A stretch of DNA of 15,195 nucleotides. Origin: a virus (taxonomy: Duplodnaviria; Heunggongvirae; Uroviricota; Caudoviricetes). This document shows positions 14,981 through 15,195 of this stretch, piece by piece. The position numbers were made by a program, and so were the translations under genes. The notes under the pieces were generated by a model. That model was not told where the DNA came from. It worked only from the letters and a program-made list of their open reading frames with translations, and did not search any database. Numbering within the stretch: the stretch's first letter is position 1; the number at the start of each line of letters is the position of its first letter. Where the stretch lies: IMG/VR virus record IMGVR_UViG_2663763000_000006; one strand, given 5' to 3'.

Positions 14981-15008
14981 TTATAGGTTGTGTATATTTG
15001 CTGGGTCC

Positions 15009-15195
15009 TTATCCTGCTGTGCTTTCAACTGATGAGGGGAACAAAATCTTTTCATCAAACCCTGCATTCATATCATGGACAGCAACACACCAATCCATTG
15101 ACGAACGATTATCAAGAGCCTCCATGATTTCATCCATGCGGCGTAGGTCATACAGGTAAATGCTTTTATCGCCAATGGTGTAAAAACCAATTTTT
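15009..15195 (-). CDS. C-terminal 62 codons of an unidentified gene entering from beyond the window end
   Basis: Minus-strand frame open from the window edge to TAA at 15011..15009: ...KIGFYTIGDKSIYLYDLRRMDEIMEALDNRSSMDWCVAVHDMNAGFDEKILFPSSVESTAG*. Followed by the terminator above. Sequence looks more AT-rich than the phage structural genes. Confidence 0.6.
   Translation of the reverse strand, partial: KIGFYTIGDKSIYLYDLRRMDEIMEALDNRSSMDWCVAVHDMNAGFDEKILFPSSVESTAG

What the first reader, a model, noticed from the sequence alone, without database searches (positions are those of the whole stretch)
14990..15195. Start of the right-end variable (old/tin-equivalent) locus: AT-rich gene fragment of unknown function
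In prophage orientation, the DNA beyond Q and cos corresponds to the P2 right-end non-essential region, which in P2 carries old and tin and in relatives is a known hotspot for accessory anti-phage or exclusion genes. Only the last 62 codons of the first cargo gene are visible (...RRMDEIMEALDNRSSMDWCVAVHDMNAGFDEKILFPSSVESTAG); I do not recognise it. Its composition looks AT-richer than the structural genes, consistent with horizontally acquired cargo.
Basis: inference. Interest (0 to 1): 0.5.

Follow-up and report, generated by a model that had tools for sequence, protein, structure and literature searches.

The report
Small accessory gene beside P2-family cos
The fragment is the tail end of a small, strongly conserved accessory gene of unknown function that many phages and plasmids share; it sits in the well-known variable spot next to the packaging site of a P2-family prophage and is already-catalogued cargo, not a recognisable anti-phage system.

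Summary
Window 15007-15195 (minus strand) holds the last 61 codons plus the stop of a real gene with 41% GC, against 54.5% for the window.

In near-identical prophages the full gene encodes 87 aa (WP_000224220.1, PHROG 1714, unknown function). It is the last gene of the unit gpA, ParM, ParR/StbB, a 143-aa gene and the 87-aa gene. This unit fills the gpA-to-cos/gpQ hotspot of a P88-like (Xuanwuvirus) P2-family prophage.

The positional reading (old/tin-equivalent variable locus, acquired cargo) is supported. The anti-phage reading is not: no PADLOC, Pfam or NCBIfam hit was found. The exact four-gene arrangement is already listed in Table S5 of Rousset et al. 2022, which also noted the partition genes.

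The 87-aa gene is a self-contained cassette with a conserved SD/stop/ATG linker upstream and a breakpoint 7 nt or less after its stop. It also occurs in:
- lambdoid and P22-like "ea" regions
- P1-like phage-plasmids
- Pectobacterium 186-like prophages, directly after gpA
- the relaxase-distal side of oriT in IncI2 plasmids

It is under strong purifying selection (dN/dS 0-0.19), is acidic, and has a confident predicted fold with no solved relative.

My best guess, which is an inference, is an early-expressed host- or defence-modulating binder. Overall this is ordinary and already catalogued.

The parts
15007..15195 (-). 3' end (61 codons plus TAA stop at 15007-15009) of an 87-aa accessory gene. 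It is identical to residues 27-87 of WP_000224220.1 and belongs to PHROG 1714. The 5' 26 codons lie beyond the window edge.
   Evidence: Translation. Window 14900-15195 is 100% identical over 296 nt to at least 25 listed E. coli genomes, where the annotated CDS is 264 nt. phrog_1714 E=1e-50. dN/dS 0-0.19.
14976..15006 (.). Junction between the cargo and the phage backbone on the cos side. Homology with copies of the cassette in other elements ends 7 nt or less after the stop (TAAGGAC). Homology with P88-like phages that carry other cargo ends at about 14948-14973.
   Evidence: Comparison of flanks in nine loci. Extent of matches to other Xuanwuvirus phages. Phage hits to the gene begin at query position 106-107, which is window 15005-15006.
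14955..14975 (.). Perfect hairpin AAAGCGCC-CCTGA-GGCGCTTT with T-runs on both strands. It is a bidirectional intrinsic terminator that ends the gpA-parM-parR-143aa-87aa transcription unit 31 nt after the stop codon.
   Evidence: Terminator scan on both strands. RNA fold -16.3 kcal/mol, z = -2.7.
14850..14948 (+). Four TTGTGCA heptamers: 14850, and 14922, 14932 and 14942 at exact 10-nt phasing. They lie inside the cos-flanking block conserved in all P88-like phages. Their function is unknown; they could be a cos accessory site or the ParR centromere.
   Evidence: Four of the seven occurrences in the window fall in these 100 nt. Repeats and palindrome. Conserved in 55989 and PhiR44_2 and in other Xuanwuvirus phages.
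14498..14975 (.). Conserved intergenic block between the gpQ stop and the cargo; it is the cos region of the P88-like phages. I place the cohesive-end site near 14800-14830, only from its resemblance to the P2 and 186 cos sequences as I recall them.
   Evidence: 93-97% identity over 89-100% of this block in 14 P2-family phage records. Alignment.
13451..14497 (+). Portal gene gpQ. It is the conserved flank gene that defines one side of the gpA-to-gpQ hotspot.
   Evidence: 348-aa ORF. Annotated as 'phage portal protein' at the matching position in 55989 and OkiPb01713.

Best explanation
Anatomy (high confidence). The fragment is the 3' end of a stand-alone 87-aa gene cassette (PHROG 1714). It is the cos-proximal cargo of the gpA-to-gpQ hotspot of a P88-like (Xuanwuvirus, Peduoviridae) prophage. 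In the closest relatives it is the last gene of a tightly packed, same-strand unit: gpA, parM, parR/stbB, a 143-aa mosaic gene, then the 87-aa gene. The unit ends at a bidirectional terminator just before cos.

The cassette was captured from the pool of small early-region genes that lambdoid, P22-like and P1-like phages and some conjugative plasmids exchange. The exchange uses a short conserved linker, AAAGGAGAGTGATATG, which combines the Shine-Dalgarno sequence, the upstream stop and the ATG.

Mechanism (inferred, low to moderate confidence). The product is a small (9.9 kDa), acidic (pI 4.7), soluble alpha/beta protein. It has no catalytic or DNA-binding signature. I propose that it is made when the element enters a cell or is induced, as part of the early transcript. 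I propose that it acts alone by binding a host protein, most plausibly to neutralise a host defence or otherwise condition the cell for establishment or replication of the element. On this reading it is not a prophage-expressed anti-phage system.

The neighbouring ParM/ParR pair is a separate type II partition module, and it is conserved in this phage genus.
For: Shown:
- Gene identity and completeness in relatives.
- Hotspot position, with cargo that varies among phages sharing the same flanks.
- The exact arrangement WP_000686557 + WP_000211293 + WP_000201254 + WP_000224220 is listed among P2 hotspot loci in Rousset et al. 2022 (PMC9122126, Table S5). That paper also says about a quarter of P2-like phages carry a putative partition system.
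- ParM = PF06406 + PF21523 and ParR = PF10784.
- Same-strand packing with gaps of 1-19 nt inside the locus, and no consensus promoter on that strand. Terminator.
- Stand-alone cassette. The upstream partner differs in every context: a 143-aa protein with no Pfam hit, a 163-aa gene with a sub-threshold Mom-family hit (E=1.1e-4, 22.4 bits against a 27.1-bit cut-off), true Ead_Ea22 proteins, a 63-aa ORF, or an IS3 element. Only the linker is shared.
- The gene always lies in early or entry-side regions: the P22-like ea region, a lambdoid phage array, an integrase-proximal array, an Edwardsiella RecT-to-int region, directly after gpA in Pectobacterium 186-like prophages, and a P1-like phage-plasmid beside Ead/Ea22 genes.
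- In an IncI2 plasmid it sits about 2.3 kb from the mobC/relaxase-oriT intergenic region, on the side away from the relaxase, and is transcribed away from oriT. By the criterion of Samuel & Burstein 2024 (PMC11541004) this is the leading side.
- Distant homologues sit in long same-strand arrays of small genes on Aeromonas, Citrobacter and Vibrio plasmids.
- Purifying selection, acidity, and a confident fold (pLDDT 90.5).
Against: - There is no functional evidence of any kind. No paper cites the accession numbers or the PHROG, and the family is absent from the supplements of the leading-region paper.
- Timing of expression is inferred from gene order and a simple promoter scan, which misses non-consensus promoters.
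- In IncI2 a traL gene lies between oriT and the gene, so the region is not a pure anti-defence island.
- The part of the locus beyond 15195 is not in the window. It differs among the closest relatives: with or without IS3, or the PhiR44_2-type arrangement.
Confidence: 0.45

Rival explanations
1. Prophage-encoded anti-phage or exclusion gene. The 87-aa protein, alone or with the 143-aa neighbour, is expressed in the lysogen and blocks superinfecting phages, as P2 old and tin do at the same locus.
For: It lies in the best-documented defence hotspot of P2-like phages (PMC9122126). It is AT-rich acquired cargo. Many validated hotspot systems had no earlier annotation, so the absence of a PADLOC hit is weak negative evidence.
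Against: There is no PADLOC hit for any locus gene. The gene is co-oriented with and abuts the early/replication operon, and no promoter was found on its strand. The same gene sits in early-left operons of lambdoid and P22-like phages and on the entry side of IncI2 plasmids, which are places typical of genes used on entry and not of lysogen-expressed morons. It is not among the systems tested in Rousset et al. (no hit in Table S2). An 87-aa protein with no enzymatic motif is an unlikely single-gene effector.
Confidence: 0.12
2. Developmental modulator of the phage's own lysis-lysogeny decision or induction. This would be analogous to the lambda exo-xis region proteins (Ea22 pro-lysogenic; Ea8.5, orf60a, orf61 and orf63 pro-lytic), whose chromosomal position it shares in lambdoid phages.
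For: In lambdoid and P22-like phages it lies immediately downstream of an Ead/Ea22-type gene. That is the slot lambda fills with ea8.5 (lambda gene order from my own knowledge). Genes of this region are reported to shift lysogenisation and induction (PMC7093339, PMC3824215).
Against: There is no sequence or fold relation to any solved exo-xis protein. The gene also occurs in conjugative IncI2 plasmids and other plasmids, which have no lysis-lysogeny decision, so a phage-specific regulatory target is unlikely. This rival overlaps the best explanation if the target is a host factor.
Confidence: 0.2
3. One half of a two-gene module (toxin-antitoxin or effector-regulator) with the 143-aa upstream gene, or an accessory factor of the ParM/ParR partition system.
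For: There is a 1-nt gap between the 143-aa and 87-aa genes, and both are small and acidic. Both lie directly behind parM-parR.
Against: The upstream partner is different in every context, and in one relative it is replaced by an IS3 insertion. Only the 16-nt SD/stop/ATG linker is conserved. Most copies are in elements with no ParMR next to the gene. Other P88-like phages keep ParMR without this gene.
Confidence: 0.05

Closest known systems
Cargo of the gpA-to-gpQ (old/tin) hotspot of P2-like phages (Rousset et al. 2022, Cell Host Microbe, PMC9122126)
   Same: The position is the same, between portal/cos and the replication endonuclease. Cargo varies among phages that share the flanks. The exact four-protein arrangement with these accession numbers is in their Table S5, and the partition cassette is mentioned in their text.
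   Different: P2 old and tin, and the validated hotspot systems, are anti-phage. Here no defence signature was found, and the gene is the tail of the early operon. In this genus ParM/ParR is a conserved part of the locus, and only the ParR-to-cos segment varies.
Lambda exo-xis / P22 'ea' region small early proteins (Ea22, Ea8.5, orf60a/61/63; PMC7093339, PMC10834534)
   Same: It belongs to the same gene pool and the same chromosomal slot in lambdoid and P22-like phages, directly after an Ead/Ea22-type gene. The proteins are small, non-essential and transcribed early, and the genes are shuffled at gene boundaries.
   Different: There is no detectable sequence or fold similarity to any of them. 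The 143-aa neighbour fails the Pfam Ead_Ea22 model. This family also occurs on plasmids.
Leading-region and early-operon anti-defence proteins of plasmids and phages (e.g. ArdA, KlcA/ArdB, Ocr, PsiB; Samuel & Burstein 2024, PMC11541004)
   Same: It is small, acidic, stand-alone and widely exchanged. It lies on the relaxase-distal side of oriT in IncI2 plasmids and in early operons of phages, inside same-strand arrays of small genes.
   Different: There is no homology to any named anti-defence family in the libraries searched, no experimental evidence, and no mention in that paper's supplements.
ParM/ParR (StbA/StbB) type II partition system of plasmid R1/NR1
   Same: The neighbouring genes match StbA_N + ParM C-terminal domain (E=1e-82 and 1e-69) and Plasmid_stab_B (E=4e-25), in the order parM-parR.
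   Different: It sits in an integrated P2-family prophage. No parC iteron array was seen in the 76-nt region upstream of parM. The only phased repeats nearby are the TTGTGCA heptamers beside cos. It is not part of the 87-aa gene's function.

Membership tests
PHROG 1714 (phage protein family, unknown function) | Full-length match to the family profile | tested here: met
   E=1e-50, residues 1-87 aligned to profile positions 1-87 of 87. The window itself encodes residues 27-87.
P2-like gpA-gpQ hotspot cargo | Located between portal gpQ/cos and replication endonuclease gpA | tested here: met
   The gpQ and cos flank are in the window. gpA follows the locus in relatives that are 99.1% and 99.8% identical. 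The window itself ends before gpA.
P2-like gpA-gpQ hotspot cargo | Gene content differs among phages with conserved flanks | tested here: met
   P88, 705R2, Chuche, PhiR44_2 and 55989 each carry different genes between ParR and cos. Of 5426 genomes, 91 have the junction and 62 have the full arrangement.
Known anti-phage defence system | Match of at least one locus protein to a defence-system model | tested here: not met
   PADLOC-DB gave 0 families at E<=1 for all four locus proteins and 0 at E<=0.01 for the PhiR44_2 extra cargo.
Known anti-phage defence system | Protects against phage infection when expressed | not testable with these tools
   This needs plaque assays. The arrangement is not among the systems tested in PMC9122126.
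Ead/Ea22-like (Pfam PF13935), applied to the 143-aa neighbour | Match to the Pfam model above the gathering score | tested here: not met
   No Pfam hit at E<=1. The upstream genes in VSe13 and plasmid p91 do match (E=2e-32 and 4e-37). The 143-aa protein matches phrog_660 and other mosaic PHROGs.
Lambda Ea8.5-type protein (same slot after ea22) | Sequence or fold similarity to solved Ea8.5 homologues | tested here: not met
Type II toxin-antitoxin pair | Conserved pairing of the two adjacent small genes | tested here: not met
   The upstream partner is unrelated in the seven contexts aligned (20-31% identity to the 143-aa protein), and in an eighth, OkiPb01713, an IS3 lies between the two genes. 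Only the linker-encoded IKGE tail is shared.
ParMR type II partition system (neighbouring genes) | Actin-like ParM plus ParR adaptor genes | tested here: met
   PF06406 E=9e-82, PF21523 E=1e-68 and PF10784 E=4e-25, found in relatives. These genes lie outside the window.
ParMR type II partition system (neighbouring genes) | parC centromere of phased iterons bound by ParR | tested here: inconclusive
   No repeats were seen on reading the 76-nt gpA-parM spacer. The phased TTGTGCA x3 repeats beside cos are a candidate only.
Leading-region / early-entry anti-defence genes | Located on the relaxase-distal side of oriT, or in a phage early operon, on the same strand as neighbouring small genes | tested here: met
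   IncI2 pHNAH46-1, judged by the criterion in PMC11541004. Phage contexts. Plasmid arrays. The identity of the T-strand was not determined.
Leading-region / early-entry anti-defence genes | Inhibits a defined host defence system | not testable with these tools
   No experimental data were found.

The most novel reading that the evidence does not exclude
PHROG 1714 is an uncharacterised family of stand-alone establishment or anti-defence proteins. It has a fold not yet seen in solved structures and a conserved ...FPSxVESTAG C-terminus. Temperate phages of at least four types (P2/186-like, lambdoid, P22-like, P1-like) and conjugative plasmids (IncI2 and others) exchange it as a cassette and express it on entry into a new cell.
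Probability: 0.25. Interest if true: 0.6.

Novelty: already known. Interest (0 to 1): 0.25.

Why it matters
For the scan, this finding can be closed. The right-end locus of this prophage is the known P2-family hotspot, it carries an already-catalogued arrangement, and no recognisable defence system starts here.

One point may deserve follow-up. The 87-aa gene is among the most widely shared small cassettes in enterobacterial mobile elements. The first search matched about 1000 of 5426 complete E. coli genomes, most at the gene and some only at the neighbouring cos flank. The protein is also encoded on 142 plasmids. It is under strong purifying selection, has a confident fold with no solved relative, and sits where entry-phase genes sit. 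That makes it a cheap and reasonable candidate for an anti-defence or host-takeover screen.

Tried and rejected
- Profile searches. The PDB sequence search found nothing. Pfam, NCBIfam and PADLOC found nothing for the 87-aa and 143-aa proteins.
- Domain fusions. The few longer family members (118-205 aa) carry no Pfam domain and look like read-throughs or unannotated extensions.
- Metal site. C22 is invariant, but C63 and H67 are not conserved, so a zinc site is unlikely.
- Toxin-antitoxin or operon-partner idea. Rejected because the upstream partner is not conserved.
- Literature. No paper mentions WP_000224220, WP_000224227 or phrog_1714. Neither accession, nor the terms IncI2 or Ea22, occurs in the leading-region paper's supplements. 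A search on ParM in P2-like prophages added nothing beyond Rousset et al..
- Rfam on 14300-15195. Only one chance-level hit: SprD, 17.7 bits against a gathering score of 100.
- Antisense promoter-like site inside the gene. One site was found against 2.9 expected by chance, so it was dismissed.
- Exact source genome. It is not in the E. coli collection; the best match is 99.8%.
- The 191-aa AT-rich ORF on the plus strand at 461-1036. It is antisense to the tail-fibre ORF that runs off the left end, so it is probably spurious.

Full report
WHAT IS IN THE WINDOW. Reading the minus strand from 15194 gives 61 sense codons, KIGFY...FPSSVESTAG, and a TAA stop at 15009-15007. The ORF runs off the right end of the window. 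The fragment has 41.3% GC against 54.5% for the window, and only 2% of equal-sized windows are as AT-rich. A perfect hairpin at 14955-14975, 31 nt downstream of the stop, has T-runs on both strands and is predicted as a bidirectional intrinsic terminator. Between it and the gpQ stop (14497) lies a block that is 93-97% identical in 14 P2-family phage records, including P88, the type phage of Xuanwuvirus. The element is therefore a P88-like member of the Peduoviridae and not P2 itself.

THE REST OF THE GENE AND THE LOCUS. The last 296 nt of the window are 100% identical to at least 25 listed complete E. coli genomes. Window 5905-15195 is 99.1% identical to the E. coli 55989 prophage. The closest record, OkiPb01713, is 99.8% identical over the last 3.6 kb. 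In these relatives the gene is 264 nt and encodes 87 aa (WP_000224220.1, 'hypothetical protein'). In 55989 the locus between cos and the replication endonuclease gpA reads, all on one strand with gaps of 1-19 nt inside the locus: gpA, a 76-nt spacer, parM (319 aa; PF06406 + PF21523), parR/stbB (104 aa; PF10784), a 143-aa protein with no Pfam hit, the 87-aa gene, and the terminator. OkiPb01713 has the same order with an IS3 element inserted just upstream of the 87-aa gene. PhiR44_2 and PCN033 carry a longer variant with a ClpX-type zinc-finger gene and a 163-aa gene that gives only a sub-threshold hit to the Pfam Mom family. Which variant follows the window cannot be told from 189 nt. Among 5426 complete E. 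coli genomes, 91 have the cos-flank/87-aa junction and 62 have the full 55989-type arrangement.

IS IT THE OLD/TIN-EQUIVALENT VARIABLE LOCUS? By position, yes. The order gpQ, cos, cargo, gpA is the hotspot described by Rousset et al. 2022 (PMC9122126). P88, 705R2 and Chuche keep gpA-parM-parR and the cos flank but carry unrelated genes between them. In this genus the truly variable segment therefore runs from ParR to cos. [quoted passage not shown] Their text already notes that about a quarter of P2-like phages carry a putative partition system. The locus is thus catalogued. It was not among the systems they tested.

IS IT DEFENCE CARGO? Nothing supports that. None of the four proteins, nor the additional PhiR44_2 genes, matches any PADLOC model. 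Pfam and NCBIfam are silent for the 87-aa and 143-aa proteins. The genes follow gpA on the same strand, and no consensus sigma-70 promoter was found on that strand in 2.9 kb. P2 old and tin, in contrast, are expressed by the lysogen (my own knowledge of P2).

WHERE ELSE IT LIVES. The same gene, at 95-99% nucleotide identity, is found in several other settings:
- In the P22-like phage VSe13 it lies between an Ead/Ea22-like gene and a DUF550 gene, upstream of xis and int.
- In two other E. coli phages it lies inside same-strand arrays of small 'ea'-type genes: 689R5, which has lambdoid replication and late-control genes, and PhiR49_2, where the array adjoins int and xis.
- In P1-like phage-plasmids it lies beside Ead/Ea22 genes.
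- In IncI2 conjugative plasmids it lies about 2.3 kb from the mobC/relaxase-oriT intergenic region, on the side away from the relaxase, and is transcribed away from oriT. By the criterion of Samuel & Burstein 2024 this is the leading side (PMC11541004).

More distant homologues lie in an Edwardsiella RecT-to-int region and in long same-strand arrays of small genes on Aeromonas, Citrobacter and Vibrio plasmids. Notably, one lies directly after gpA in the same gpA-to-gpQ hotspot of Pectobacterium 186-like prophages.

A SELF-CONTAINED CASSETTE. The upstream neighbour is a different protein in nearly every context. All of these neighbours nevertheless end in ...IKGE. The reason is that the last codons, the stop and the start, AAAGGAGAGTGATATG, form a conserved linker that contains the 87-aa gene's Shine-Dalgarno sequence. 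The IS3 in OkiPb01713 abuts this linker. Downstream, homology with other contexts ends 7 nt or less after the stop (TAAGGAC). The lambdoid, P1-like and IncI2 copies continue into the next gene's ribosome-binding site, whereas the P2-family copies continue into about 30 nt of unique sequence and then the terminator. The same linker recurs after the gene in the IncI2 plasmid. This is the boundary-sequence style of module exchange known from lambdoid phages (my own knowledge). It argues against an obligate two-gene system.

MOST LIKELY MECHANISM. This part is inference. The protein is small, acidic, soluble and has no enzymatic or DNA-binding signature. It is always found on the early or entry side of mobile elements, works without a fixed partner, and is strongly conserved. 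The best fit is a protein made on entry or induction that binds a host factor, most plausibly a defence component or another obstacle to establishment. I put this at roughly 0.35-0.45. A role in the phage's own lysis-lysogeny balance, as for the exo-xis proteins (PMC7093339), is the main rival at about 0.2. It is weakened by the gene's presence on conjugative plasmids. Prophage-expressed defence is at about 0.1. A toxin-antitoxin or ParMR-accessory role is at about 0.05.

VERDICT. The locus is an already-catalogued arrangement in a known hotspot. The only open question is the function of PHROG 1714.

Noticed in passing
window 13017/13018 (gpP, terminase large subunit, 11705-13451 +): There is a 5-bp deletion relative to E. 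coli 55989 (and OkiPb01713). It shifts the frame, so gpP reads 445 aa and then stops, instead of 583 aa. The prophage may be unable to package DNA, or this may be a sequencing error.
   Followed up: partly
window 14850-14948: Four TTGTGCA heptamers lie in the cos-flanking block, three of them at exact 10-nt phasing and partly palindromic. The block is conserved in all P88-like phages, and those inspected carry ParM/ParR. The repeats could be a terminase or cos accessory site, or the missing ParR centromere.
   Followed up: partly
L002 5999-6523 and L008 4401-4925; corresponds to window ~14497/14498: PhiR44_2 and 705R2 carry an extra 174-aa minus-strand gene (no PADLOC hit) inserted between the gpQ stop and the cos flank. 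The window and 55989 lack it. This is a second, smaller insertion point on the other side of cos.
   Followed up: partly
L013-L015 4001-4249 (Pectobacterium 186-like prophages): An 82-aa homologue of the same family sits 3 nt after gpA in the same gpA-to-gpQ hotspot of a different Peduoviridae lineage (one with 186 Fil and RepB). The cassette has therefore been captured at this locus more than once.
   Followed up: partly
L022 9733-10946 (E. coli OkiPb01713, closest relative): An IS3-family element is inserted exactly at the conserved AAAGGAGAGTGATATG linker upstream of the 87-aa gene. It separates the gene from the early operon and alters the C-terminus of the upstream gene.
   Followed up: no
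window 4856-6736 (-): A 626-aa protein with DUF1737, a SASA carbohydrate acetylesterase domain and DUF6645 is encoded next to the lysis genes. It may be a surface-polysaccharide-modifying cargo gene that is not part of the P2 core.
   Followed up: no
window 1-1329 (-) and 461-1036 (+): The tail-fibre (gpH-like) ORF is open for 443 codons and runs off the left end. It contains a stretch of only 23-30% GC around 600-900. The 191-aa plus-strand ORF there is antisense to it and probably spurious. The closest relative differs here by an indel of about 170 nt.
   Followed up: partly
L017 4440-4620 (IncI2 pHNAH46-1, mobC-proximal intergenic region): A dense array of CCCACA-containing short repeats lies between the oriT-like inverted repeat and the first gene on the leading side. 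Its function was not examined.
   Followed up: no
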